From Actinomycetota bacterium (GTDB taxonomy: Bacteria > Actinomycetota > Actinomycetes > Mycobacteriales > Micromonosporaceae): 24,000 bases of DNA. Shown piece by piece: positions 1,912 through 20,922 of this stretch (the stretch's first letter is position 1; every line of letters starts with the position of its first letter). The position numbers and the translations under genes are program-made. The DNA lies in NCBI GenBank assembly GCA_005885555.1, contig VAWN01000043.1, positions 100,192 to 124,191 of the forward strand, written 5' to 3'. The notes below the pieces were generated by a model. It saw only the letters and a list, made by a program, of their open reading frames with translations. It was not told where the DNA came from and did no database searches.

Positions 1912-1989
1912 ACCGGTTTCAACGCTTGATCGGGCGGTGGCGTAACGTCGCCGTAACGGGAGCGGAGGAGACTCTCCCGAGGGTGAGGG

Positions 1990-3351
1990 GTGGAACCAGT
2001 GGACCGTCAGCAGGAGTTCGTGCTGCGCACGCTTGAGGAGCGGGACATCCGCTTCGTGCGGCTGTGGTTCACCGACGTGCTCGGGACATTGAAGTCGGTG
2101 AGCGTCGCGCCGGCCGAGCTGGAGGCGGCGTTCGACGAGGGGATCGGGTTCGACGGGTCGGCGATCGAGGGGTTCGCCCGGGTACACGAGTCGGACATGG
2201 TGGCGATGCCCGATCCGACGACGTTCCAGGTGTTCCCGTTCGAGGGCGGGGTCAGCGGGGAGAGCGCCCGGATGTTCTGCGACATCCTGCAGCCGGACCG
2301 CTCGCCGTCCTGGGCCGACCCGCGGCACGTGCTGCGCCGGGCGCTGTCCCGGGCGGCGGAGAAGGGCTTCACCTTCTACACCCATCCGGAGATCGAGTTC
2401 TTCCTGCTGGAGGCGCTGCCGGTGGACGGCTCCCCACCGGTACCGGTGGACGCCGGCGGTTACTTCGACCACACCACGCACGCGGTGGCCCGCGACTTCC
2501 GGCGCCAGGCGGTACTGGCCCTGGAGCGCATCGGCATCTCGGTGGAGTTCAGCCACCACGAGGTCGCGCCCGGCCAGCAGGAGATCGACCTGCGCTACGC
2601 CGACGCGCTGACCACGGCCGACAACGTCATGACGTTCCGGCACGTGGTCAAGGAGGTGGCGCTGTCGCAGGGCGTGGAGGCCAGCTTCATGCCCAAGCCG
2701 TTCACCGACCAGCCGGGCTCCGGGATGCACACCCACCTGTCGCTGTTCGAGGGGGAGCGCAACGCCTTCCACGACCCGGGCGACCCGATGAAGCTGTCCA
2801 AGGTCGGGCGGGCGTTCATCGCCGGGCTGCTGCACCACGCGCGGGAGTACACCGCCGTCACCGACCAGTGGGTGAACTCGTACAAGCGGCTGTTCCCGCA
2901 GGCGCTGCCCGACCGGATCACCGAGGCGCCGGCGTACGTGTGCTGGGGGCACCTGAACCGCTCGGCGCTGGTGCGGGTACCGGCGTTCGGCAAGCCGAAC
3001 TCCGCCCGGGTCGAGGTGCGCTCGCTGGACTCGGCGTGCAACCCGTACCTGTCCTTCGCGGTCCTGCTCGGTGCCGGGCTCAAGGGCATCGAGGAGGGGT
3101 ACGAGCTGCCGCCCGGGGCGGAGGACGACGTGTGGGCGCTGTCGCCCGAGGAGCGCAAGGCGATGGGGTACGCCCCGCTGCCGGAGAACCTGTCCGAGGC
3201 GATCGACGTGATGGCCGGCTCGGAACTGGTCGCCGAGATCCTGGGCGAGCACGTGTTCGAGTTCTTCCTGCGCAACAAGCGCAGCGAATGGGAGGAGTAC
3301 CGGCGCGAGGTCACCCCCTACGAGCGCCAGCGCTACCTCGGCATCATGTAA
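1990..3351 (+). CDS. glnA2: glutamine synthetase, GlnA2-type (GSI-beta-like, 453 aa)
   Basis: Carries 'FVRLWFTDVLGTLKSVSV', 'GFDGSAIEGF', 'FMPKPF...GSGMHTHLSLF' and 'NSYKRL..PAYVCWG..NRSALVRVP', which are classic GS motifs. It is syntenic with glnE as in mycobacteria. GTG start at 1990 follows GAGGG; GTG at 1999 is an alternative. Confidence 0.88.
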   Translation: MEPVDRQQEFVLRTLEERDIRFVRLWFTDVLGTLKSVSVAPAELEAAFDEGIGFDGSAIEGFARVHESDMVAMPDPTTFQVFPFEGGVSGESARMFCDILQPDRSPSWADPRHVLRRALSRAAEKGFTFYTHPEIEFFLLEALPVDGSPPVPVDAGGYFDHTTHAVARDFRRQAVLALERIGISVEFSHHEVAPGQQEIDLRYADALTTADNVMTFRHVVKEVALSQGVEASFMPKPFTDQPGSGMHTHLSLFEGERNAFHDPGDPMKLSKVGRAFIAGLLHHAREYTAVTDQWVNSYKRLFPQALPDRITEAPAYVCWGHLNRSALVRVPAFGKPNSARVEVRSLDSACNPYLSFAVLLGAGLKGIEEGYELPPGAEDDVWALSPEERKAMGYAPLPENLSEAIDVMAGSELVAEILGEHVFEFFLRNKRSEWEEYRREVTPYERQRYLGIM

Positions 3352-6372: not shown

Positions 6373-7182
6373 GTGTCGTTGGATAGCCTGAGGGGCGTGG
6401 CGAGCGACCGCACCCCCGTGACCAACCGGACCCTTGTCGTGGAGAACGACCCGACCGACGACGCGCGCCGGCTCGGCGGGTGGCTCACCGAGGGCGGCCT
6501 GGCCCTGGAGGTCTGCCGGCCGCACGCCGGCGATCCGCTGCCGGAGCAGCTGGACGGGTACGCCGCGCTGGTCGTCCTCGGCGGGGAGCAGCCGGCCTAT
6601 CCGGCGCCGGACGGCACCCCGGGGGCGCCCTGGTTCCCGGCGCTGGAAGGGTTGCTGCGCAAGGCGGTCCGGTACGAGGTGGCGACCCTCGGGGTGTGCC
6701 TGGGCGGGCAGCTGCTGGCGGCCGCGCTCGGGGGTACCGTCGAGCGCAGCGCCGCCGGGCCGGAGATCGGGCCGCGGCTGGTCGCCCGCCGCGACGCCGC
6801 CGAGCGTGACGCGCTGTGGGCACCGGTACCGCTGGCGCCCGACGTCCTGCAGTGGCACCTCGACGAGATCACCGAGCTGCCCGCCCGGGCGACCCTGCTC
6901 GCCGCCTCGACCTACTACCCGCACCAGGCGTTCCGGGCTGGTACCCGCGCCTGGGGGCTGCAGTTCCACATCGAGTGCGACACCGCGATGGTGGCCGACT
7001 GGGTGGCCGGCAACCCGACCGCGCTGGCCGAGCTGGGCATCGCACCGGATCGGCTGGTCGCCGCGTGCGACGCGGTCATGCCGGACCTTGCGGAGGTGTG
7101 GCGGCCGTTCGCGCTGCGGTTCGCCGCGATCGCACTGGGCACGCTGGCTCCCGGAGCCGGCCGCGAGCTTCCGGTGTTATGA
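6373..7182 (+). CDS. class-I (type 1) glutamine amidotransferase-like protein
   Basis: Has 'LVVLGG', the nucleophile elbow 'GVCLGGQLL' and 'GLQFHIE' (His/Glu of the triad). The start is uncertain (GTG at 6373, 6397 or 6418). The stop overlaps the glnE start (ATGA). Confidence 0.75.
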   Translation: MSLDSLRGVASDRTPVTNRTLVVENDPTDDARRLGGWLTEGGLALEVCRPHAGDPLPEQLDGYAALVVLGGEQPAYPAPDGTPGAPWFPALEGLLRKAVRYEVATLGVCLGGQLLAAALGGTVERSAAGPEIGPRLVARRDAAERDALWAPVPLAPDVLQWHLDEITELPARATLLAASTYYPHQAFRAGTRAWGLQFHIECDTAMVADWVAGNPTALAELGIAPDRLVAACDAVMPDLAEVWRPFALRFAAIALGTLAPGAGRELPVL

Positions 7183-10016
7183 GTACCCCGCCCGGGATGG
7201 CGAGACCGGTCGGCGCCGCGGCGGCACTGGCCCGGTACCGGCTCGCCGACCCGGGGCGGGCGCACCAACTGCTGCGCGCGCTGGCGCTGTGGGACGGCAC
7301 CCCGGCCGATCCGGGCGCCGAGGCGATCCTCGACGCGCTCGGCCGCACCGCCGACCCGGACCTCGCGCTGCGCCAGCTGCACCGGCTCGCCGAGGGCGAC
7401 GAGGACCTGCTGTTCCGGCTGCGGGTCAACCCGAGCCTGCGCGCGCGGTTGCTGGCGGTGCTCGGCGCATCCGACGCGCTCGGCGACCATCTGGTCGCCA
7501 ACCCGGGGGAGTGGCGGACGCTGGCCGCGCCGAACGGGTACGCGCTGCGGTTCGACGGTTCGACCGTGCCGCGGCTGCGGATCGCCTACCGGCGCAGCCT
7601 GTTGCGCGTCGCCGCCGGCGACCTGACCGGGGCGCTGGACGTGGAGCAGACCATGACCGCGCTGTCCGCACTCGCCGACGCCACGCTGGCGGCCGCGTTC
7701 GAGCTGGCCGGCGGCGACGGTACCGGCCTGGCCGTCATCGCGATGGGAAAGTGCGGCGGCAACGAGCTGAACTACGTGTCCGACGTGGACGTCATCTTCG
7801 TCGCCCGCGCCGACGAGCACCTCGACGTGGGTACCCGGGTCGCCGCGCGGCTGATGGAGATCTGCGGCCAGGTCGCCTGGCCGGTCGACGCCGCGCTGCG
7901 TCCGGAGGGCAGCCGCGGTGCGCTGGTCCGGACGCTGGCCAGCCATCTGGCGTACTACACGAAGTGGGCGCGCACGTGGGAGTTCCAGGCGCTGCTCAAG
8001 GCCCGCCCGGCGGCCGGGGATCTCAATTTGGGACGCGAGTGGCTGGAAGCGTTGCAGCCACTCATCTGGCACGCGGCCGAGCGGCCCGAGGCGGTACCCG
8101 ACATCCGCGCCATGCGCCAGCGGATCGTCGAGGCGGTACCCCGTGCCGAGCGCGACCGGGAGATCAAACGCGGTCCGGGCGGCTTGCGGGATATCGAGTT
8201 CGCCGTGCAGCTGCTGCAGCTCGTGCACGGCCGTGCCGACGAGTCGCTGCGCTCACCGTCCACATTGGACGCTCTGCGCGCGCTCTCACATGGTGGATAC
8301 GTGGGACGCGCCGCCGGAGAGGCACTCGACCGCGCGTACCAGTTCCTGCGTACCGTCGAGCACCGGCTGCAGTTGCAGAAGCTGCGCCGCACGCATCTGG
8401 TACCGGCCGACCCGGAGGGCCAGCGGTGGCTCGCCCACGCGCTGGGGTACCGCGCCGGCAGCGGCCAGGACGCCGTCGAGCGCTTCCGTGCCGACTGGCT
8501 CGCGATGGCCACGGAGGTCCGGCGGCTGCACGCCAAGCTGCTGTACCGTCCGCTGCTTGACGCGGTGGCCCGGGTACCCGGTGACGACCTGCGACTGACC
8601 CCGGATGCGGCCCGGCTGCGGTTGGAGGCGCTGGGGTACGCCGATCCGGCCGGTGCGCTGCGCCACATCGAGGCGCTCACCGGTGGCGTGTCGCGAACCG
8701 CGGCGATCCAACGGCAGTTGCTGCCGGTACTGCTGTCCGAGTTCGCCGACGCACCCGAGCCGGACCGCGGGCTGCTCGCCTACCGCCAGGTTTCCGAGAA
8801 GCTCGGCGCGACACCCTGGTACCTGCGACTGCTGCGCGACGAGGGACCGGTGGCGCTGCGCCTGTCCCGGCTGCTGGGCCTGTCCCGGTATGTCACCGAC
8901 CTGCTCGCCCGCGACCCGGAAGCGTTGCGGCTGCTGGCCGACGACGCGGAGCTGGCACCCCGCCCGCGGGAGACGCTGCGCGACGGGTTCGCCGCGGCGG
9001 CGGCGCGGCACGGCGACCCGGTGGCCGCGATCGCGGCGGTCCGCGCGCTGCGCCGCCGGGAGCTGTTCCGCATCGCGTGCGCCGACCTGCTCGGGCTGGT
9101 CGAGCTGACGGCGGTCGGCGGCGCGCTCGCCGACGTCACCGACGCGACGCTCGCCGCGGCGCTGGCCGTCACGAACCGCACCGGGTTGCCGTTCACCATC
9201 ATCGGCGTGGGACGGCTCGGCGGGTACGAGGTGAGCTATTCGTCCGACGCCGACGTGCTTTTCGTGTACGACGGGGACCGCGGTTCGGCCGCGCATGAGG
9301 TCGCCGAGGAGCTGCGCCGGCTGCTCGCCGCGCCCGCGCCGGATCCGCCGCTGGGCGTGGACGCGGACCTGCGCCCGGAGGGCCGGCAGGGGCCGCTGGT
9401 GCGCAGTCTCGCCGCGTACACGCAGTACTACGACCGCTGGGCGCACGTGTGGGAGGCGCAGGCGTTGCTGCGGGCGCGGTACGTCGCCGGGGATGCCGCG
9501 CTCGCGCAGCGGTTCCTGGAACTGGCCGGCCGGATCCGGTACCCGGCCGGTGGGCTCACCCGTGAACAGGTCACCGAGATCCGGCGCATCAAGGCCCGGG
9601 TGGACAGCGAGCGGCTGCCCCGCGGTGCGGATCCGGCGTTGCACGCGAAGCTGGGCCGGGGCGGGCTGGCCGACATCGAGTGGACGGTACAGCTGCTGCA
9701 GTTGCGCTACGGCGACCAGGTACCGGAGCTGCGCACCACGCGGACCCTGCCGGCTCTGGAGGCCGCGCGCCGCGCGGAGCTGGTCGACGGCGCCGACGCG
9801 CTGGCCCTGTCCCGGGCGTGGACCCTGGCCAGCCGGGTGCGTAACGCGCTGATGCTGGTGCGCGGGCGGCCCACCGACGAGCTGCCCCGGCACGGTCCGG
9901 AACTGGCCGGCGTGGTACGGATCCTGCGCGCACCCGAGGCCGGTGCGTTCGTCGACGACTACCTGCGCACCGCACGCCGCGCCCGCCAGGTCTTCGAGCG
10001 CCTCTTCGGCGGCTGA
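7179..10016 (+). CDS. glnE: bifunctional [glutamine synthetase] adenylyltransferase / adenylyl-removing enzyme
   Basis: 945 aa with two nucleotidyltransferase halves ('GKCGGNELNYVSDVDVIFV' and 'GRLGGYEVSYSSDADVLFV'), each followed by a 'D..LRPEG..G.LV' GlnE repeat. ATG at 7179 (alternative 7197). Confidence 0.93.
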   Translation: MSTPPGMARPVGAAAALARYRLADPGRAHQLLRALALWDGTPADPGAEAILDALGRTADPDLALRQLHRLAEGDEDLLFRLRVNPSLRARLLAVLGASDALGDHLVANPGEWRTLAAPNGYALRFDGSTVPRLRIAYRRSLLRVAAGDLTGALDVEQTMTALSALADATLAAAFELAGGDGTGLAVIAMGKCGGNELNYVSDVDVIFVARADEHLDVGTRVAARLMEICGQVAWPVDAALRPEGSRGALVRTLASHLAYYTKWARTWEFQALLKARPAAGDLNLGREWLEALQPLIWHAAERPEAVPDIRAMRQRIVEAVPRAERDREIKRGPGGLRDIEFAVQLLQLVHGRADESLRSPSTLDALRALSHGGYVGRAAGEALDRAYQFLRTVEHRLQLQKLRRTHLVPADPEGQRWLAHALGYRAGSGQDAVERFRADWLAMATEVRRLHAKLLYRPLLDAVARVPGDDLRLTPDAARLRLEALGYADPAGALRHIEALTGGVSRTAAIQRQLLPVLLSEFADAPEPDRGLLAYRQVSEKLGATPWYLRLLRDEGPVALRLSRLLGLSRYVTDLLARDPEALRLLADDAELAPRPRETLRDGFAAAAARHGDPVAAIAAVRALRRRELFRIACADLLGLVELTAVGGALADVTDATLAAALAVTNRTGLPFTIIGVGRLGGYEVSYSSDADVLFVYDGDRGSAAHEVAEELRRLLAAPAPDPPLGVDADLRPEGRQGPLVRSLAAYTQYYDRWAHVWEAQALLRARYVAGDAALAQRFLELAGRIRYPAGGLTREQVTEIRRIKARVDSERLPRGADPALHAKLGRGGLADIEWTVQLLQLRYGDQVPELRTTRTLPALEAARRAELVDGADALALSRAWTLASRVRNALMLVRGRPTDELPRHGPELAGVVRILRAPEAGAFVDDYLRTARRARQVFERLFGG

Positions 10017-14165: not shown

Positions 14166-15590
<1,425 letters not shown>

Positions 15591-15662
15591 CACGTCCTCC
15601 TGGTTGATCCACAGGTGGTCAGCGCCGATGCTGGATATTGGCCGCGACGCTATGACTATGGC

Positions 15663-15700
15663 ATTGCCCGAGCATGTCTCAATTGTTTCCGCCGTGTTAC
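15663..15700 (-). promoter_or_regulatory. candidate GlnR operator (four 5-mers at 11-nt phasing) upstream of glnA
   Basis: The minus strand reads GTAAC-n6-GAAAC-n6-GACAT-n6-GCAAT. The first pair matches the actinobacterial GlnR a-site/b-site consensus gTnAc-n6-GaAAc exactly. It lies about 75-110 nt upstream of the glnA start in the most AT-rich patch of the window. Confidence 0.5.
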
Positions 15701-15755
15701 GTCCCTGGCGGCCCACCTCGGGCCGGTCGCGGGTAGCCGGCTACGCTCGGTACCC

Positions 15756-17020: not shown

Positions 17021-17069
17021 GCTCCCCGGGACTCAGCGCTCCCCGGACTCAGCGCCGCCCGGACTTACC
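17021..17069. repeat. about 3 tandem copies of a 16-17-bp unit overlapping the lipA stop codon
   Basis: GCTCCCCGGGACTCAGC / GCTCCCCGGACTCAGC / GCCGCCCGGACTTACC. The third, degenerate copy contains the lipA TAA (17065..17067). Confidence 0.85.
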
Positions 17070-17997
17070 GCGCAGTACGCGCTGCCATGGCCTGAGCGTA
17101 GAGCCGGCCGGCGCGGTACGAGGAACGCACCAGCGGGCCGCTCATCACGCCGGCGAAGCCGATCCGCTCCGCCTCCTCGCGCAGCTCGACGAACTCCTCG
17201 GGCCGCACCCAGCGCTCGACCGGATGGTGGCGCGGAGTCGGCCGCAGGTACTGGGTGATGGTCACCAGTTCGCAGCCGGCGTCGTGCAGGTCGCGCAGCG
17301 CCTGGGACACCTCGGCCCGCTCCTCGCCCAGCCCGAGGATCAGGTTGGACTTGGTCACCAGTCCGGCGGCGCGGGCCCGGCGCAGCACGTCGAGCGAGCG
17401 CTCGTACCGGAACGCCGGCCGGATCCGCTTGAAGATCCGCGGTACCGTCTCCACGTTGTGCGCGAGCACCTCCGGCCGCGCGCCGAACACCTCGCCCAGC
17501 TGTGCCGGGTCGGCGTCGAAGTCCGGGATCAGCAGCTCCACTCCGCAGCCGGGCAGCAGCTTGTGGATCTGCCGGACGGTCGCCGCGTAGAGCCACGCGC
17601 CGCCGTCGGGCAGGTCGTCGCGCGCCACGCCGGTCACGGTCGCGTACTTCAGTCCCATCGTGGCCACCGACTCGGCCACCCGGCGCGGTTCGTCGGCGTC
17701 GAACTCGGCCGGCCGGCCGGTGTCGATCTGGCAGAAGTCGCACCGCCGGGTACATTGATCGCCGCCAATGAGGAAGGTGGCCTCGCGGTCCTCCCAGCAT
17801 TCGTAGATGTTGGGGCAGCCGGCTTCCTGGCAGACGGTGTGCAGACCCTCCCGCTGCACCAGCCCGCGCAGTGCGGTGAACTGCGGCCCCATCCGCGCCG
17901 TCACCTTGATCCAGGGCGGCTTGCGTTCGATGGGGGTCTCCGCGTTACGCGCTTCGATGCGCAGCATGCGGCGGCCGTCGGGCTGGGCGAGGGTCAC
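17065..17997 (-). CDS. lipA: lipoyl synthase (radical SAM)
   Basis: Has '[12 protein letters not shown]' and '[12 protein letters not shown]' (auxiliary cluster), '[10 protein letters not shown]' (CX3CX2C radical-SAM cluster) and a C-terminal 'RSSY'. I prefer the GTG at 17997, which gives '[18 protein letters not shown]'. In-frame alternatives are 18018, 17967 and 18063. Confidence 0.92.
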
Positions 17998-18094
17998 AAG
18001 CGCAGCGTACGCCCTCATCAGCCGAAACCGGACGGTGGAAAGCGGTGGGGCGACGAGGGTCACGTCCGGTAGCCTGGGCGGTCACGGCGTTGAC

Positions 18095-18295
18095 GGAACC
18101 GAGTAGCGCGCCGACCCGCCAGTCGAGAGAGCCGCCGGTAGCTGGGAAGGCGGTCTGGCGCCGGCGCGTGAAGACACTCCCGAGCCGCGGCACGGCAGAG
18201 AGGCCGTCCGTTCCGGGCGGCGAAGGTGTGGTGGCACCGCGAGGCACCCTTCTCGCCCGCACCTCCGAAGGGGACACAACCATCGGAGGTGACCA
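18095..18295 (+). promoter_or_regulatory. T-box riboswitch leader, Asp (GAC) specifier, translational (SD-sequestering) type
   Basis: Stem I carries AGUA (18103-18106) opposite a GAA-GAC-A specifier loop (18170-18176). An AGAGA-containing bulge (18121-18131) and a distal loop (18137-18148) follow. There is an F-box-like CCGUUC (18208-18213). The T-box core is GGUGUGG-UGGCACC-GCGAG (18225-18243). In the antisequestrator, helix A2 is GCGAG/CUCGC and helix A1 is GGUGUGG/CCGCACC (18257-18263). A competing 9-bp helix, CACCUCCGA (18260-18268) / UCGGAGGUG (18283-18291), buries the SD 5 nt before the ATG at 18296. Confidence 0.85.
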
Positions 18296-19516
18296 ATGAA
18301 CCGCATCCTTTCCACGCAGCTGCCCGAGCACGCCGGGCAGACCGTGACGCTGGCCGGCTGGGTACACCGGCGTCGGCTGCTCAAGTCGGTCGGCTTCCTG
18401 GTCCTGCGCGACCGGGCCGGCCTGGCCCAGGTGGTTGCCGCGCCGCCGGCGCTCGCCGCCTTTCCGGAAGAGACGGTGGTACTGGTGACCGGCGTGGCCA
18501 CGGTCAACCCGGCCGCCCCGGGCGGCGTGGAGGTCGCCGGGCCGACCATCGTCGCGTTGACCGACCCGGCGCAGCCGCCGCCGTTCGACCTGTACCGTCC
18601 CGAACTCGCCGCCGCCCTGCCGACCCTGCTCGACCATGCACCGGTGGCGCTGCGCCATCCGCGGCTGAGCGCGTTGCACCGGTTGTCGGCCAGAGCCGTG
18701 GCCGGGTTCCGTCAGGCGCTCGACGCGCTGGACTTCATCGAGATCCACACGCCGAAGCTGGTCGCCTCGGCGACCGAGTCCGGCGCCAACGTGTTCGGCA
18801 TCGACTACTTCGGCCGTCCCGCATACCTCGCGCAGAGCCCGCAGTTCTACAAGCAGATGATGGTCGGGGTCTTCGAGCGGGTCTACGAGGTCGGGCCGGT
18901 GTTCCGGGCCGAGCCGCACGACACGGTACGGCATCTGGCGCAGTACACGTCGCTGGACGCCGAACTCGGGTTCATCACCGACCACCGCGAGGTCATGGCG
19001 GTCGTCCGTTCCGTCGTGGCCGGAATGCTCGACGGCACCGGCGTCGAGGTGCCCGCCGAGATCCCCGCGATCCACTTCGCCGACGCCATGGACCTGCTCG
19101 GTGCCGACGAGCCCGACCTCGCTCCGGCGCACGAGCGCTGGCTGGGTGAGTGGGCGGTGCGGGAGTACGGCAGCGAACTGCTGTTCGTCACCGGGTACCC
19201 GATGGTCAAGCGGCCGTTCTACACCCACCCGGAACCCGGCCGGCCCGGTTACTCCAACAGCTTCGACCTGCTGTTCCGGGGGATGGAGATCGTCACCGGC
19301 GGCCAGCGGCTGCACCGGTACGGCGACTATGTGTCGGCGCTGCACGGCCAGGACCTCGCGCCGTACGAGGCGTACCTGCAGGCGTTCCGGCACGGGATGC
19401 CGCCGCACGGCGGCTTCGCGCTGGGGCGGGAGCGGTTCGTGGCGCGACTGACCGGGGCGGCCAACGTCCGGCAGACCACCCTGTTCCCGCGGGACCTGCA
19501 CCGCCTGTCGCCGTGA
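18296..19516 (+). CDS. aspS: aspartate--tRNA ligase, archaeal/eukaryal type (type 2, 406 aa); second-copy AspRS
   Basis: N-terminal OB fold ('GQTVTLAGWVHRRRLLKSVGFLVLRD'). Class IIb motifs 'QSPQFYKQMMV', 'GPVFRAEPHDTVRHLAQYTSLDAE' and 'GGFALGRER'. The C-terminal 'LFPRDLHRLSP' is typical of archaeal-type AspRS. The upstream T-box specifier is the Asp codon. Confidence 0.85.
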   Translation: MNRILSTQLPEHAGQTVTLAGWVHRRRLLKSVGFLVLRDRAGLAQVVAAPPALAAFPEETVVLVTGVATVNPAAPGGVEVAGPTIVALTDPAQPPPFDLYRPELAAALPTLLDHAPVALRHPRLSALHRLSARAVAGFRQALDALDFIEIHTPKLVASATESGANVFGIDYFGRPAYLAQSPQFYKQMMVGVFERVYEVGPVFRAEPHDTVRHLAQYTSLDAELGFITDHREVMAVVRSVVAGMLDGTGVEVPAEIPAIHFADAMDLLGADEPDLAPAHERWLGEWAVREYGSELLFVTGYPMVKRPFYTHPEPGRPGYSNSFDLLFRGMEIVTGGQRLHRYGDYVSALHGQDLAPYEAYLQAFRHGMPPHGGFALGRERFVARLTGAANVRQTTLFPRDLHRLSP

Positions 19517-19518
19517 AT

Positions 19519-19562
19519 CGTCAACTCGGACTTGACGCGCCGGCGTCAACCCACACTTGACG
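19519..19562 (+). promoter_or_regulatory. two tandem 19-bp palindromes CGTCAA-n7-TTGACG (candidate operators / alternative hairpins)
   Basis: CGTCAActcggacTTGACG lies at 19519-19537 and CGTCAAcccacacTTGACG at 19544-19562, with 25 bp between centres. The inner arms can also pair (TTGACGC gccg GCGTCAA, 19532-19549). The array ends 1 nt before the ATG at 19564. No SD is visible. Confidence 0.6.
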
Positions 19563-19563
19563 C

Positions 19564-20268
19564 ATGACTCCACTCACCGTGAAGCTGCAGGAGCTGATCG
19601 ACCAGATCGAGGCCGACCTGCCCGACGCGGATCCTGTCGCCAAGATCGGCGAGGCCCGGCTGCGCAGCCGTACCCTTGTCGATCTCGGCGACCAGCTCGT
19701 CGACCACTACGTGCACGCGGCCCGCGCGGACGGCGCCTCGTGGAGCCAGATCGGCGACGCGCTCGGCGTCACCAAGCAGGCCGCCCAGCAACGCCGGTCC
19801 GACCCGCAGTTCGAGCGGTACACCGGCCGGGCGCGGCACGTCGTCGTACTGGCGCAGGACCGGGCGCGCACGCTCAAGCACGACCGGATCGACACCGGCC
19901 ACCTGCTACTCGGCCTGCTCGGCGAGCCGGACGGGCTGGCGGCGAAGGTGCTCGTCTCGCTGCTCGGCTCGCTCGACCCGGTCTCCGCGGCGGCGCACGC
20001 GGCGCTGACCCCCGGGGAGGGCAAGCCGCCGAGCGGGCACCTGATGCTCACCGAGGACGCCAAGCACACCCTCGGCCTGTCCGTCGAGATCGCCCTCGAC
20101 ATGAGCCACAACTACGTCGGTACCGAACACATCCTGATCGCACTGACGCGGATCCCGCAGGGGCAGGCCGCCCGGATCCTGACGGAGCTGGGCGTGACGC
20201 ACGACCGTGCGTACGACGCGGTCTCGGCCGCGCTGGTCGGGTACCAGCACAAGGCGCGCAAGACCTGA
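19564..20268 (+). CDS. ClpC2-like protein: N-terminal HTH-like region + Clp N-terminal (Clp_R) repeat domain, no ATPase module
   Basis: The C-terminal 150 aa align by eye to the ClpC N-domain ('FERYTGRARHVVVLAQDRARTLKHDRIDTGHLLLGLL.E.DG.AAKVL' and 'SGHL.LTEDAKHTLGLSVEIALDMSHNYVGTEHILIAL'). The N-terminal part contains 'GASWSQIGDALGVTKQAAQQR', as I recall it from mycobacterial ClpC2 (Rv2667). Confidence 0.75.
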   Translation: MTPLTVKLQELIDQIEADLPDADPVAKIGEARLRSRTLVDLGDQLVDHYVHAARADGASWSQIGDALGVTKQAAQQRRSDPQFERYTGRARHVVVLAQDRARTLKHDRIDTGHLLLGLLGEPDGLAAKVLVSLLGSLDPVSAAAHAALTPGEGKPPSGHLMLTEDAKHTLGLSVEIALDMSHNYVGTEHILIALTRIPQGQAARILTELGVTHDRAYDAVSAALVGYQHKARKT

Positions 20269-20277
20269 GCCGCGAGA

Positions 20278-20922
20278 TCAGAGCAGCATCGGCAGGTGGC
20301 GCTCGACGACCGGCAGCATCTGCGCGACGGTCACCTCGCGACCCAGCTCCCTGGACAGCGAGGTGACCGCGGCGTCGGTGATGCCGCAGGGCACGATGCG
20401 GTCGAAGCGGGTCAGGTCGCAGTCGCAGTTGAGGGCGAAGCCGTGCAGCGTCGTGTTGCGGGCGACGCGGATGCCGATCGCGGCCACCTTCCGGTCCGGT
20501 CCGCGGTCGTCGGCGGGTACCCACACCCCGGTGCGCCCCTTGATCCGCTGCGCCGACGGCACGCCGACCTCGGCGCAGACCGCGATGAGCATGGCCTCCA
20601 CCCGGCGCACGTAGGCCACGACGTCGAGGCGGCCGGCCGTAAGGCGCAGGATCGGATACCCGACGATCTGCCCCGGTCCGTGCCAGGTGATCTTCCCGCC
20701 CCGGTCGGTGTCCACCACAGGGGTACCGTCCAGCGGCCGCTCCCACGCTTCGGTGCGCTTTCCGGCGGTGTACACGTCGCGGTGTTCGAGCAGCAGAACC
20801 GTAGGCGGCGCAAGCCCTTCAGCCACCGCGGCGTGCAGCCGGCGCTGCTCGTCCCACGCGTCCTGGTAGTCGACGAGCCCCGGAAGGCGGACGGGCACGG
20901 GAGTCTGCACCGCGGTGGTCAT
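20278..20922 (-). CDS. lipB: lipoyl(octanoyl) transferase
   Basis: Has '[14 protein letters not shown]', '[19 protein letters not shown]', '[17 protein letters not shown]' and 'IVPCGI', which are canonical LipB motifs (Cys/Lys dyad). Confidence 0.92.

What the first reader, a model, noticed from the sequence alone, without database searches (positions are those of the whole stretch)
18095..18295. Complete translational T-box riboswitch with GAC specifier and UGGC bulge (tRNA-Asp)
All diagnostic elements can be read directly. The AGUA/GAA S-turn specifier loop presents GAC followed by the conserved purine. The 7-nt antiterminator-type bulge is UGGCACC, and its variable C would pair with the G73 discriminator of tRNA-Asp. 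The 3' strand of helix A1 (18257-18263) overlaps an anti-SD (18260-18268) that otherwise forms a perfect 9-bp helix over the GGAGG SD. No terminator U-tract is present, so control should be at translation initiation. That is the mode characterised for actinobacterial ileS T-boxes. An Asp-specific actinobacterial T-box with a full-length Stem I would extend that class.
Basis: partly seen in the sequence, partly recalled or inferred. Interest (0 to 1): 0.75.

Follow-up and report, generated by a model that had tools for sequence, protein, structure and literature searches.

The report
Aspartate tRNA-sensing T-box leader of aspS2
The RNA leader in front of a second aspartyl-tRNA synthetase gene in this actinomycete is a genuine T-box riboswitch that most likely senses uncharged tRNA-Asp and unmasks the ribosome-binding site; this is a known kind of switch, in a conserved but under-annotated high-GC branch.

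Summary
Window 18084-18295 (+) has the full anatomy of a T-box leader:
- Stem I with K-turn, AGUA/GAA specifier loop presenting GAC+A, AGAGA bulge and distal loop;
- Stem III;
- the UGGCACC bulge between helices A1 and A2;
- a perfect 9-bp anti-SD/SD helix that shares 4 nt with the A1 3' strand.

There is no U-tract. RF00230 matches end to end (51.1 bits, E 2e-10), but below Rfam's curated cut-off of 93.

The downstream gene is an archaeal-type aspartyl-tRNA synthetase (aspS2), wedged between lipA and lipB as in other Micromonosporaceae. Orthologous genes in 80 fetched loci mostly carry the same leader with a GAC specifier. Stem I and A1/A2 show strong covariation. Low-GC relatives pass the Rfam cut-off (95-117 bits) and use U-tract terminators. 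None of 29 actinobacterial leaders has a U-tract; in many the Shine-Dalgarno instead pairs with an anti-SD next to A1.

Best reading: a tRNA-Asp-responsive T-box acting on translation initiation. This is inferred, not tested.

It is a new member of a known kind. Its modest twists are a long Stem I, no Stem II domain, and a conserved extra pairing (A2 loop with a G-run) that looks like the retained outer stem of an ancestral terminator.

The parts
18087..18185 (+). Stem I (tRNA-decoding domain). K-turn strands GC-GUUGAC 18087-18094 and CGA-GC 18181-18185; lower helix GGAA 18095-98 / CUCC 18177-80; upper helices and distal platform.
   Evidence: RF00230 alignment. The MFE fold recovers Stem I. 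In a 39-leader alignment 87.2% of cells are paired and 16/16 pairs have compensatory changes; slid controls give 37-49%.
18099..18105 (+). Specifier loop, 5' side: CCGAGUA with the S-turn AGUA (18102-18105).
   Evidence: Sequence. (G/A)AGUA is invariant in alignment A2.
18126..18154 (+). Distal Stem I platform: AG bulge AGAGA 18126-30, helix GCCGCC 18131-36 / GGCGGU 18149-54, distal loop GGUAGCUGGGAA 18137-48. This is the presumed tRNA-elbow docking site.
   Evidence: Aligned to the AGAGA and distal-loop consensus of RF00230 with high posterior probability. AGAGAGCC and the helix are conserved with covariation: helix 4 is 93% paired.
18170..18176 (+). Specifier loop, 3' side: GAA-GAC-A. The specifier GAC (Asp) is at 18173-18175 and the following purine is A18176.
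   Evidence: Sequence and Rfam alignment. GAC is present at this position in all 41 parsed orthologous leaders.
18186..18202 (+). 17-nt single-stranded linker that replaces the Stem II / IIA-B domain.
   Evidence: RF00230 alignment: 2 nt where the model has a 40-nt stretch. The distance from Stem I to the T-box motif is 45 nt here and 80-180 nt in most relatives.
18203..18221 (+). Stem III: GCCGUCC / GGGCGGC with loop GUUCC, followed by the purine linker GAA 18222-24.
   Evidence: RF00230 alignment. A hairpin is present at this position in all aligned leaders, though its length varies.
18225..18263 (+). Antisequestrator (T-box discriminator): A1 GGUGUGG 18225-31 / CCGCACC 18257-63; 7-nt bulge UGGCACC 18232-38 (UGGC would pair with the tRNA 3' GCCA); A2 GCGAG 18239-43 / CUCGC 18252-56; A2 loop 18244-51.
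   Evidence: Across 25 actinobacterial leaders 96.3% of cells are paired, 15 cells have changes on both sides, 0/500 shuffles reach this, and slid controls give 37-61%. Energy -17.5 kcal/mol.
18260..18291 (+). Sequestrator hairpin: anti-SD CACCUCCGA 18260-68 pairs with UCGGAGGUG 18283-91 (SD GGAGG 18285-89), plus inner GG 18270-71 / CC 18280-81. It shares 18260-63 with the A1 3' strand.
   Evidence: Exact 9-bp complement. Present in the MFE fold. P(SD paired to this zone) = 1.00. Chance of 9 bp is 0.0006. Own-partner versus other-partner permutation test P = 0.0004 over 29 leaders.
18247..18272 (+). Extra conserved long-range pairing 'P-a': A2-loop CCCUU(C) 18247-52 with (G)AAGGG 18267-72. It encloses the A1 3' strand and the anti-SD and crosses the sequestrator helix.
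   Evidence: Found at 4-8 bp in 28 of 29 actinobacterial leaders, with variants CCCG/CGGG, AGCCC/GGGCU, UUCCCAAA/UUUGGGGA; permutation P = 0.002. The column test gives a covariation score of 0.341 against 0.196 (0/500), but the register is ambiguous because slide -1 does as well. It corresponds to the outer stem of the terminators in Chloroflexota relatives.
18296..19516 (+). aspS2: archaeal-type (GAD-less, 406 aa) aspartyl-tRNA synthetase. This is the regulated gene.
   Evidence: Pfam tRNA-synt_2 plus OB anticodon-binding domain. NCBIfam PRK05159 aspartate--tRNA(Asn) ligase, 487 bits against a cut-off of 353. Best PDB match 1N9W, Thermus AspRS2, E 4e-104. GC1/2/3 0.74/0.47/0.93.
19564..20268 (+). 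Gene for a protein with two Clp_N repeats, 48 nt downstream of aspS2 on the same strand. Probably co-transcribed and so under the same leader.
   Evidence: Pfam Clp_N. Homologues follow aspS2 in L006, L027 and L063. Co-transcription is inferred.

Best explanation
Window 18084-18295 is the 5' leader of aspS2 and is a T-box riboswitch specific for tRNA-Asp.

Proposed mechanism:
- Stem I reads the tRNA anticodon GUC with its GAC specifier and docks the tRNA elbow on its distal platform.
- If the tRNA is uncharged, its 3' GCCA end pairs with UGGC in the 7-nt bulge. This stabilises the antisequestrator (helices A1 and A2), which holds the CACC start of the anti-SD inside A1 and leaves the Shine-Dalgarno free, so aspS2 (and probably the Clp_N gene behind it) is translated.
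- If tRNA-Asp is charged or absent, the more stable alternative forms. The A1 3' strand is released and CACCUCCGA pairs with UCGGAGGUG, burying GGAGG six nucleotides before the ATG and blocking initiation.
- The choice is probably made while the leader is being transcribed, as reported for the ileS translational T-box.

Shown here: the sequence anatomy, the family-level homology, covariation of Stem I and A1/A2, conservation of GAC, the mutually exclusive folds and their energies, and the absence of a terminator.

Inferred: tRNA binding, charge sensing, and that the output is translational.
For: - Family match: RF00230 matches full length at 51.1 bits, E 2e-10. Orthologous leaders in low-GC relatives pass the gathering score at 95-117 bits.
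- Stem I covariation: 87% of cells paired, 16/16 pairs compensatory, 0/500 shuffles.
- A1/A2 covariation: 96% of cells paired, with slid controls at 37-61%.
- Specifier: GAC in all 41 parsed leaders, UGGC or UGGU in all. The downstream gene is AspRS.
- Sequestrator: exact 9 bp with chance 0.0006; A2 plus sequestrator is -28.0 kcal/mol against -17.5 for the antisequestrator. The SD pairs to this zone with P = 1.00 in the window and P >= 0.5 in 13 of 29 actinobacterial leaders. The own-partner test gives P = 0.0004.
- No terminator: no U-tract in the window or in any of the 29 actinobacterial leaders, whereas 18 other leaders have one.
- Not coding: the leader ORF has GC1/2/3 of 0.71/0.71/0.72.
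- Literature: SD sequestration by T-boxes and their co-transcriptional control are described for actinobacterial ileS (PMC7583486; PMC12647780).
Against: - The RF00230 score is below the curated gathering score (51.1 against 93).
- No tRNA-Asp gene is in the window or in any fetched locus. The GUC anticodon and G73 therefore rest on general knowledge of tRNA-Asp.
- The column-based covariation test of the sequestrator is weak (62% of cells paired; 2/500 shuffles reached that percentage and 5/500 reached the covariation score).
- In 16 of 29 actinobacterial leaders the predicted SD pairing to the anti-SD zone is below 0.5.
- In 72%-GC sequence many segments can pair with a G-rich SD. A bulge-tolerant duplex scan found an equally good partner about 200 nt upstream in the window.
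- No promoter was recognised. The annotated lipA start lies only 18 nt from the leader's 5' end, so the transcript's 5' end is unknown.
- There are no experimental data.
Confidence: 0.78

Rival explanations
1. It is a genuine tRNA-Asp T-box, but the output is transcriptional. The 18260-18291 hairpin would act as a U-tract-less intrinsic terminator, or the untranslated leader would expose the transcript to Rho, so that mRNA level rather than initiation is what changes.
For: - The ancestral platform in Chloroflexota and Bacillota relatives is a U-tract terminator.
- The actinobacterial leaders keep the terminator's outer stem, P-a.
- The hairpin is stable and GC-rich at -20.6 kcal/mol.
- Blocking translation commonly triggers Rho-dependent polarity (general knowledge).
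Against: - There is no U-tract after the hairpin.
- The hairpin's 3' arm is the SD itself, 6 nt from the ATG, which is the geometry of a sequestrator.
- The CCUCC anti-SD is an addition specific to the U-tract-less leaders.
Confidence: 0.12
2. The leader responds to tRNA-Asn as well as, or instead of, tRNA-Asp. The enzyme belongs to the non-discriminating type that makes Asp-tRNA-Asn; tRNA-Asn also has G73; and its GUU anticodon could read GAC through a G.U pair at the first codon position.
For: - NCBIfam places the enzyme in aspartate--tRNA(Asn) ligase and its best PDB match is the non-discriminating Thermus AspRS2.
- Actinomycetales with an extra AspRS mostly lack AsnRS (PMC4206432).
- A Clostridia relative (L079) seems to carry an AAC-containing specifier region.
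- Partial cross-induction of a T-box by a near-cognate tRNA is reported in the title of PMC2916919 (listed).
Against: - GAC, not AAC, is invariant in 41 parsed leaders.
- Watson-Crick pairing with tRNA-Asp would be stronger than pairing that relies on a wobble.
- No tRNA sequences from this genome were available to test the idea.
Confidence: 0.06
3. The leader is a decaying relic with T-box motifs that no longer regulates, and aspS2 is expressed constitutively.
For: The Rfam score is low and the Stem II domain has been lost.
Against: - All functional motifs are intact.
- Compensatory changes maintain Stem I, A1 and A2 across dozens of lineages.
- The same Stem II-less form is kept in at least 8 Micromonosporaceae-like genomes.
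- Glycyl T-boxes work without Stem II (PMC7583486).
Confidence: 0.03

Closest known systems
Actinobacterial ileS translational T-box (Mycobacterium tuberculosis / M. smegmatis / Nocardia farcinica; PDB 6UFG, 6UFM)
   Same: It has the same discriminator (Stem III, A1/A2, UGGN bulge). It has the same output logic, an anti-SD overlapping the A1 3' strand that pairs with the SD when the tRNA is charged or absent. It lacks a U-tract terminator and occurs in the same phylum (PMC7583486; PMC12647780).
   Different: - Specifier GAC (Asp) rather than AUC (Ile), and the gene is aspS2 rather than ileS.
- Stem I is full length with the AG bulge and distal-loop platform, whereas most ileS leaders have a short or ultrashort Stem I.
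- The Stem II/IIA-B domain, essential in the ileS leaders, is absent here.
- There is an extra A2-loop/G-run pairing.
glyQS T-box (Bacillus subtilis, Geobacillus kaustophilus; PDB 6POM, 4MGN)
   Same: The overall architecture is the same: long Stem I, a short linker, Stem III and the discriminator, with no Stem II domain (PMC7583486).
   Different: glyQS has a Gly specifier GGC and an intrinsic terminator, so it acts on transcription. The published rationale for doing without Stem II is the all-G/C GGC:GCC codon-anticodon duplex. The GAC:GUC duplex here has one A-U pair.
Asp-specific T-boxes of Firmicutes, and the orthologous aspS2 leaders of Chloroflexota and Bacillota
   Same: They share the GAC specifier and an AspRS gene downstream. 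The orthologous leaders are homologous along their whole length and pass RF00230's gathering score. TBDB lists 510 Asp T-boxes and notes that GAC-type codons are preferred.
   Different: Those leaders carry a Stem II domain and a hairpin followed by a U-tract. The window has neither.
Clostridium acetobutylicum T-box controlling the ND-AspRS/GatCAB operon (Saad et al. 2012, 2013; cited in PMC4206432; details from my own knowledge)
   Same: A T-box controls an extra, archaeal-type non-discriminating AspRS.
   Different: The Clostridium leader is reported to use an Asn (and Glu) specifier and transcription antitermination. Here the specifier is Asp and the platform is an SD sequestrator.
Thermus thermophilus AspRS2 (PDB 1N9W, 3KFU)
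   Same: It is the closest solved homologue of the regulated enzyme (352 bits, E 4e-104, aligned over residues 3-406). Both are archaeal-type and lack the GAD insertion.
   Different: Whether the window's enzyme also charges tRNA-Asn was not tested. I know of no T-box reported for the Thermus gene (not checked here).

Membership tests
T-box leader (Rfam RF00230) | Covariance-model score at or above the curated gathering score | tested here: not met
   The window scores 51.1 bits against a gathering score of 93 and gives no hit in gathering mode. The match is nevertheless full length (model 1-219) with E 2e-10, and orthologous leaders in low-GC relatives score 95-117 bits. The shortfall reflects the missing Stem II region and the high GC content, not the absence of core elements.
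T-box leader (Rfam RF00230) | Stem I with a K-turn at its base and a specifier loop with the S-turn (AGUA/GAA) presenting a codon followed by a purine | tested here: met
   K-turn strands 18087-94 and 18181-85; AGUA 18102-05; GAA-GAC-A 18170-76. Stem I covariation: 16/16 pairs compensatory, 0/500 shuffles.
T-box leader (Rfam RF00230) | Distal Stem I AG bulge and distal loop (interdigitated T-loops that stack on the tRNA elbow) | tested here: met
   AGAGA 18126-30 and the loop GGUAGCUGGGAA 18137-48 align to the consensus with high posterior probability and are conserved in 39 leaders. The three-dimensional fold itself is not testable here.
T-box leader (Rfam RF00230) | T-box sequence forming helices A1 and A2 around a 7-nt bulge that begins UGGN | tested here: met
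   GGUGUGG-UGGCACC-GCGAG...CUCGC-CCGCACC at 18225-18263. Across 25 leaders 96.3% of cells are paired, with U-A to C-G exchanges in A1.
T-box leader (Rfam RF00230) | A mutually exclusive, more stable alternative helix (terminator or sequestrator) that uses the A1 3' strand | tested here: met
   The sequestrator 18260-68/18283-91 shares 18260-63 with A1. Energies are -28.0 kcal/mol (with A2) against -17.5.
T-box leader (Rfam RF00230) | Downstream gene belongs to the metabolism of the amino acid named by the specifier | tested here: met
   GAC (Asp) sits in front of an aspartyl-tRNA synthetase gene.
T-box leader (Rfam RF00230) | Binds the cognate uncharged tRNA and switches in response to its charging state | not testable with these tools
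   Needs binding, probing and reporter experiments. No tRNA-Asp gene was available from this genome.
Actinobacterial ileS-type ('class II') translational T-box | SD sequestered by an anti-SD adjoining the A1 3' strand, with no U-tract terminator | tested here: met
   This is a prediction from sequence and folding only.
Actinobacterial ileS-type ('class II') translational T-box | Truncated (short or ultrashort) Stem I lacking the distal platform | tested here: not met
   The window's Stem I is full length, 99 nt with the AG bulge and distal loop. Some orthologous Asp leaders (L025, L066, L032, L039) do appear to have an ultrashort Stem I.
Actinobacterial ileS-type ('class II') translational T-box | Stem II with S-turn plus the IIA/B pseudoknot between Stem I and Stem III | tested here: not met
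   Only a 17-nt linker, 18186-18202, lies there. Most other actinobacterial Asp leaders keep a region of 80-180 nt (measured from Stem I to the T-box motif) carrying a CCCCGU(C/U)A signature.
Actinobacterial ileS-type ('class II') translational T-box | Ile specifier upstream of ileS | tested here: not met
   The specifier is GAC and the gene is aspS2.
glyQS-type (Stem II-less) T-box | No Stem II domain; Gly specifier GGC; intrinsic terminator | tested here: not met
   Only the first feature is shared. The specifier is GAC and there is no terminator.

The most novel reading that the evidence does not exclude
The actinobacterial aspS2 leaders may use a three-helix expression platform rather than a simple two-state hairpin swap. 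The retained outer stem of the ancestral terminator (A2-loop CCCUU(C) 18247-52 with (G)AAGGG 18267-72) would form as soon as it is transcribed, about 12 nt before the SD emerges. It would present the anti-SD in its loop and then capture the SD as an H-type pseudoknot. That would act as a co-transcriptional timing lock that sets the tRNA decision window.

Together with the loss of Stem II inside Micromonosporaceae and the ultrashort-Stem-I versions elsewhere, one orthologous leader family would then document the stepwise conversion of a transcriptional T-box into translational ones.
Probability: 0.3. Interest if true: 0.6.

Novelty: new member of a known kind. Interest (0 to 1): 0.4.

Why it matters
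- Translational T-boxes have been characterised almost only for ileS, and TBDB's translational model was built from ileS leaders. A conserved Asp-specific set extends the class to a second amino acid. It also offers natural variants of one orthologous leader: with and without Stem II, with long or ultrashort Stem I, and with terminator or sequestrator. These variants could test current ideas on why Stem II is needed and how expression platforms convert.
- Practically, the whole high-GC branch scores 47-71 bits against Rfam's cut-off of 93. Threshold-based annotation therefore misses it, and a clade-specific model would recover it.
- It also suggests that the extra archaeal-type AspRS of Actinomycetales (PMC4206432) is an inducible back-up switched on when tRNA-Asp charging falls.

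Tried and rejected
- **Rfam in gathering mode** on the whole window gave nothing. Only the permissive mode showed the T-box. The other two weak hits there (HDV ribozyme E 4.2, Yfr1 E 4.4) are chance-level and were dismissed.
- **Bulge-tolerant duplex scan** of each leader for the best partner of the SD window did not discriminate in GC-rich sequence. Only 8 of 29 leaders put the best partner at A1, and in the window a segment about 200 nt upstream scored -22.5 against -21.1. I replaced it with full-leader pair probabilities and a contiguous-helix own-versus-other permutation test.
- **Column-based pair counting for the sequestrator** was blurred by register shifts between lineages (62% paired).
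- **The regex for the Stem IIA/B signature** gave false positives and false negatives, so I relied on linker length and on reading the sequences.
- **Leader peptide or real ORF** across the leader (18045-18299, stop overlapping the ATG): rejected, because GC by codon position is flat.
- **Source genome:** the exact protein is not on record. The organism was placed only by synteny and identity as Micromonosporaceae-like.
- **tRNA-Asp gene** to verify the anticodon and G73: none in the window or in 80 loci.
- **Key primary papers** (Vitreschak 2008, Sherwood 2015, Gutierrez-Preciado 2009, Kreuzer and Henkin 2018) are not held. I therefore cannot exclude that Asp T-boxes of Actinobacteria are listed there. 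Five full-text searches found no description.
- **Promoter scan:** no sigma-70 consensus, which is uninformative in a high-GC actinomycete.
Full report
**What is there.** The window is 72% G+C. By gene content it is core actinomycete chromosome: two glnA genes, glnE, a penicillin amidase, DUF4191, lipA (17065-18063, minus strand), lipB (20278-20922, minus strand) and an MMPL transporter. Two plus-strand genes sit between lipA and lipB:
- a 406-aa class II aminoacyl-tRNA synthetase (18296-19516);
- a protein with two Clp_N repeats (19564-20268).

The synthetase passes NCBIfam's curated cut-off for the archaeal-type aspartate--tRNA(Asn) ligase (PRK05159, 487 bits against 353). Its closest solved homologue is Thermus thermophilus AspRS2 (1N9W, E 4e-104). 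The arrangement lipA | aspS2 | lipB recurs in Micromonospora, Actinoplanes, Catellatospora, Rugosimonospora and related MAGs, with lipA 82-88% identical. The source is therefore a member of, or close to, Micromonosporaceae. The exact protein is not in the public collection. A survey paper reports that an extra AspRS occurs in only about 15 genera outside Deinococcus-Thermus, mainly Actinomycetales that lack AsnRS (PMC4206432). That fits reading this gene as a second copy, aspS2, although the 24-kb window cannot show the first copy.

**Checking the observation.**
- AGUA at 18102;
- GAAGACA at 18170 (GAC 18173-75, then A);
- UGGCACC at 18232;
- GGUGUGG 18225-31, complementary to CCGCACC 18257-63;
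- CACCUCCGA 18260-68, the exact reverse complement of UCGGAGGUG 18283-91, which contains GGAGG six nucleotides before the ATG at 18296.

Rfam's T-box model does not reach its gathering score (no hit). In the permissive mode it aligns from its first to its last position over 18081-18263 with 51.1 bits and E 2e-10. That alignment places the K-turn, S-turn, AGAGA bulge, distal loop, specifier, Stem III and T-box bulge as expected. It shows 2 nt where the model has the 40-nt Stem II region. The unconstrained MFE fold of 18081-18300 reproduces Stem I and the SD hairpin. A 9-bp perfect complement to the SD window appears in 0.06% of shuffles. No terminator-like hairpin with a U-tract exists.

The only corrections concern the extent and the word 'complete'. 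The base of Stem I begins at 18087, not 18095, and the optional Stem II domain is missing.

**Comparative evidence.** A scan of one genome per species for relatives of the protein returned 80 loci in Actinomycetota, Chloroflexota, Bacillota and a few other phyla.
- About 60 of them carry GGUGG(C/U)ACC(G/A)CG, mostly 50-150 nt upstream of the start.
- In the 41 leaders that could be parsed (38 plus the window with a full-length Stem I, 2 with a short one) the specifier is GAC every time.
- On a sequence-only alignment of 39 Stem I regions, 87% of cells are paired. All 16 predicted pairs show compensatory changes, and none of 500 shuffles reaches any measure. Sliding the partners drops pairing to 37-49%.
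- On 25 actinobacterial leaders, A1 and A2 are 96% paired, with U-A to C-G exchanges, against 37-61% for slid controls.
- The Rfam model scores the orthologous leaders of low-GC relatives at 95-117 bits, above the gathering score: Anaerolineae L054, Clostridia L079, Symbiobacteriaceae L077, Paenibacillus L073 and L076, Chloroflexia L016 and L029, Chloroflexota L035. It scores the actinobacterial ones at 47-71 bits.

The window's leader is thus a divergent member of one continuous T-box lineage, not a look-alike. About 13 loci from other phyla or classes have no T-box at all.

**How it most likely works.** The antisequestrator (A1+A2) is worth -17.5 kcal/mol. The alternative with A2 plus the anti-SD/SD hairpin is worth -28.0, and the overall MFE is -35.3. 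This is the usual T-box asymmetry, in which the ON fold needs the tRNA to persist.
- The two folds compete for 18260-18263.
- In the ensemble of the whole leader, the SD pairs with the A1-3'/anti-SD zone with probability 1.00 in the window. The probability is at least 0.5 in 13 of 29 actinobacterial leaders.
- Each leader's anti-SD arm fits its own SD window better than those of other leaders (permutation P = 0.0004). For example, CACCUCC/GGAGGUG changes to GCACUCCCA/UGGGAGUGC.
- None of the 29 actinobacterial leaders has a U-tract. Of the other leaders, 18 have one, and in most of those examined it follows a hairpin.

I therefore conclude, with about 0.78 confidence, that uncharged tRNA-Asp holds A1 closed and frees the SD, and that otherwise the SD is masked. 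The tRNA-Asp features are a GUC anticodon pairing with GAC and a 3' GCCA pairing with UGGC; G73 comes from established tRNA-Asp identity rules. Recent single-molecule work on the ileS T-box indicates that the choice is made co-transcriptionally and that the sequestrator, once formed, barely reverts (PMC12647780). The 10 kcal/mol gap here suggests the same.

Steps not shown: tRNA binding, charge discrimination, the transcript's 5' end (no promoter recognised), and the translational nature of the output.

**Rivals.**
- A transcriptional output, through a U-tract-less terminator or Rho acting on the untranslated leader, cannot be excluded by sequence (0.12).
- Cross-response to tRNA-Asn is conceivable because the enzyme type is non-discriminating and GUU could read GAC with a G.U pair. 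The invariance of GAC argues against it (0.06).
- A dead relic is unlikely given the covariation (0.03).
- The ORF that spans the leader is not coding: GC by codon position is 0.71/0.71/0.72, against 0.74/0.47/0.93 for aspS2.

**Comparison with what is known.** It works like the actinobacterial ileS translational T-boxes but is not a member of that subclass. It has a full-length Stem I with the elbow-docking platform, lacks the Stem II/IIA-B domain that those leaders depend on, and reads Asp.

Its architecture (long Stem I, short linker, Stem III, discriminator) is that of the glyQS T-boxes. The review literature treats the lack of Stem II as a peculiarity of the glycine class and explains it by the strong GGC:GCC duplex (PMC7583486). 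The same review notes that a few translational T-boxes have long Stem I, and TBDB allows for long-Stem-I T-boxes with sequestrators.

TBDB holds 510 Asp T-boxes overall, but its translational model was trained on ileS only. I found no paper describing Asp-specific translational T-boxes in Actinobacteria. However, the key surveys (Vitreschak 2008, Sherwood 2015) are not in the library, so prior listing cannot be excluded.

I rate the finding as a new member of a known kind.

**Things seen on the way.**
- *Three architectures.* The orthologous leaders come in three forms:
  - long Stem I with a Stem II domain;
  - long Stem I without it, in the window and seven Micromonosporaceae-like leaders. 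Other leaders from the family or sharing its lipA/lipB synteny (L008, L021, L027) keep Stem II, so the loss appears to have happened within the family;
  - an apparently ultrashort Stem I with GAC in a small loop, which the Rfam model misses.
- *An extra pairing.* A C-run in the A2 loop (CCCUU(C) 18247-52) pairs with a G-run just after the anti-SD ((G)AAGGG 18267-72).
  - It is found at 4-8 bp in 28 of 29 actinobacterial leaders, with true compensatory variants (CCCG/CGGG, AGCCC/GGGCU, UUCCCAAA/UUUGGGGA; permutation P = 0.002). The exact register is ambiguous.
  - In the terminator-type relatives the terminator's 5' arm starts in this same A2-loop C-run and its 3' arm ends in a G-run. The pairing is therefore the retained outer stem of the ancestral terminator.
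  - It crosses the sequestrator helix, so the two together would form an H-type pseudoknot. Alternatively they act in sequence during transcription. Its role is unexplained. It is the basis of the novel case.

**Verdict.** The element is real, conserved and almost certainly functional. Its mechanism is the known T-box mechanism with a translational platform. The interest lies in the under-annotated clade and its natural architectural series rather than in a new principle.

Noticed in passing
window 18247-18252 with 18267-18272; same positions in L001-L075 actinobacterial leaders: A conserved extra pairing links the A2-loop C-run to a G-run just 3' of the anti-SD. It has compensatory variants (CCCG/CGGG, AGCCC/GGGCU, UUCCCAAA/UUUGGGGA; P = 0.002). 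It crosses the sequestrator helix, so a pseudoknot is possible. It matches the outer stem of the U-tract terminators of Chloroflexota relatives. Its function is unknown.
   Followed up: partly
L025, L066, L032, L039, L034, L020, L075, L002 (about 100-170 nt upstream of the aspS2 start): In these actinobacterial, Acidimicrobiia and Solirubrobacter relatives Stem I appears reduced to a short hairpin with GAC in or near its loop, followed by a Stem II-like region. This would be an Asp counterpart of the 'ultrashort' ileS Stem I. RF00230 did not detect the five that were scanned (L002, L020, L032, L034, L039) at E <= 0.01; the other three were not scanned.
   Followed up: partly
L009, L011, L016, L029, L047, L060, L065, L069, L073, L076, L077 and others, compared with 29 actinobacterial leaders: The same orthologous leader uses a hairpin followed by a U-tract in Chloroflexota and Bacillota. 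In Actinomycetota there is no U-tract, and in many leaders an SD-pairing anti-SD takes its place. This looks like a within-family switch of expression platform. Some Chloroflexota leaders (L024, L031, L035, L051) have a terminator-like hairpin without a clear U-tract.
   Followed up: partly
all fetched T-box leaders: Rfam's gathering score of 93 bits excludes every actinobacterial member of this leader family (47-71 bits), while low-GC members pass (95-117 bits). Threshold-based annotation will systematically miss them.
   Followed up: yes
specifier loops of 41 parsed leaders (window A18176): The 'conserved purine' after the specifier is A in 24 leaders, C in 15 and U in 2. This position is therefore not conserved as a purine in this clade. 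The window has A.
   Followed up: no
L079:430-470 (Clostridia MAG): The specifier region reads GAAGGAACAC. It seems to present AAC (Asn), overlapping GAA, rather than GAC. This is reminiscent of the two-codon T-box reported upstream of the Clostridium acetobutylicum ND-AspRS/GatCAB operon.
   Followed up: no
window 19564-20268 (+); L006, L027, L063 downstream of aspS2: A 234-aa protein made of two Clp_N repeats follows aspS2 by 48 nt on the same strand, and also follows it in three relatives. It is probably co-regulated by the T-box. Nothing obvious links it to aspartate or tRNA metabolism.
   Followed up: partly
window 17065-20922; L002, L003, L006, L008, L012, L022, L030, L027, L063: The T-box-aspS2 cassette is inserted between the divergently oriented lipA and lipB genes in all these Micromonosporaceae-like genomes. 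The longest lipA ORF starts at 18063, only 18 nt from the leader's 5' end, so either lipA starts further in (candidates at 18018, 17997, 17967) or the two promoters overlap.
   Followed up: partly
window 18225-18238: In the tRNA-free MFE fold, GGUGU (18225-29) pairs with GCACC (18234-38). This small hairpin would mask the UGGC bulge in the OFF state.
   Followed up: no
window 1987-3351, 6810-10016, 14166-15716: Two glutamine synthetase genes and glnE (the adenylyltransferase) lie within 15 kb upstream. This is the usual actinomycete nitrogen-assimilation neighbourhood and is unrelated to the finding.
   Followed up: no
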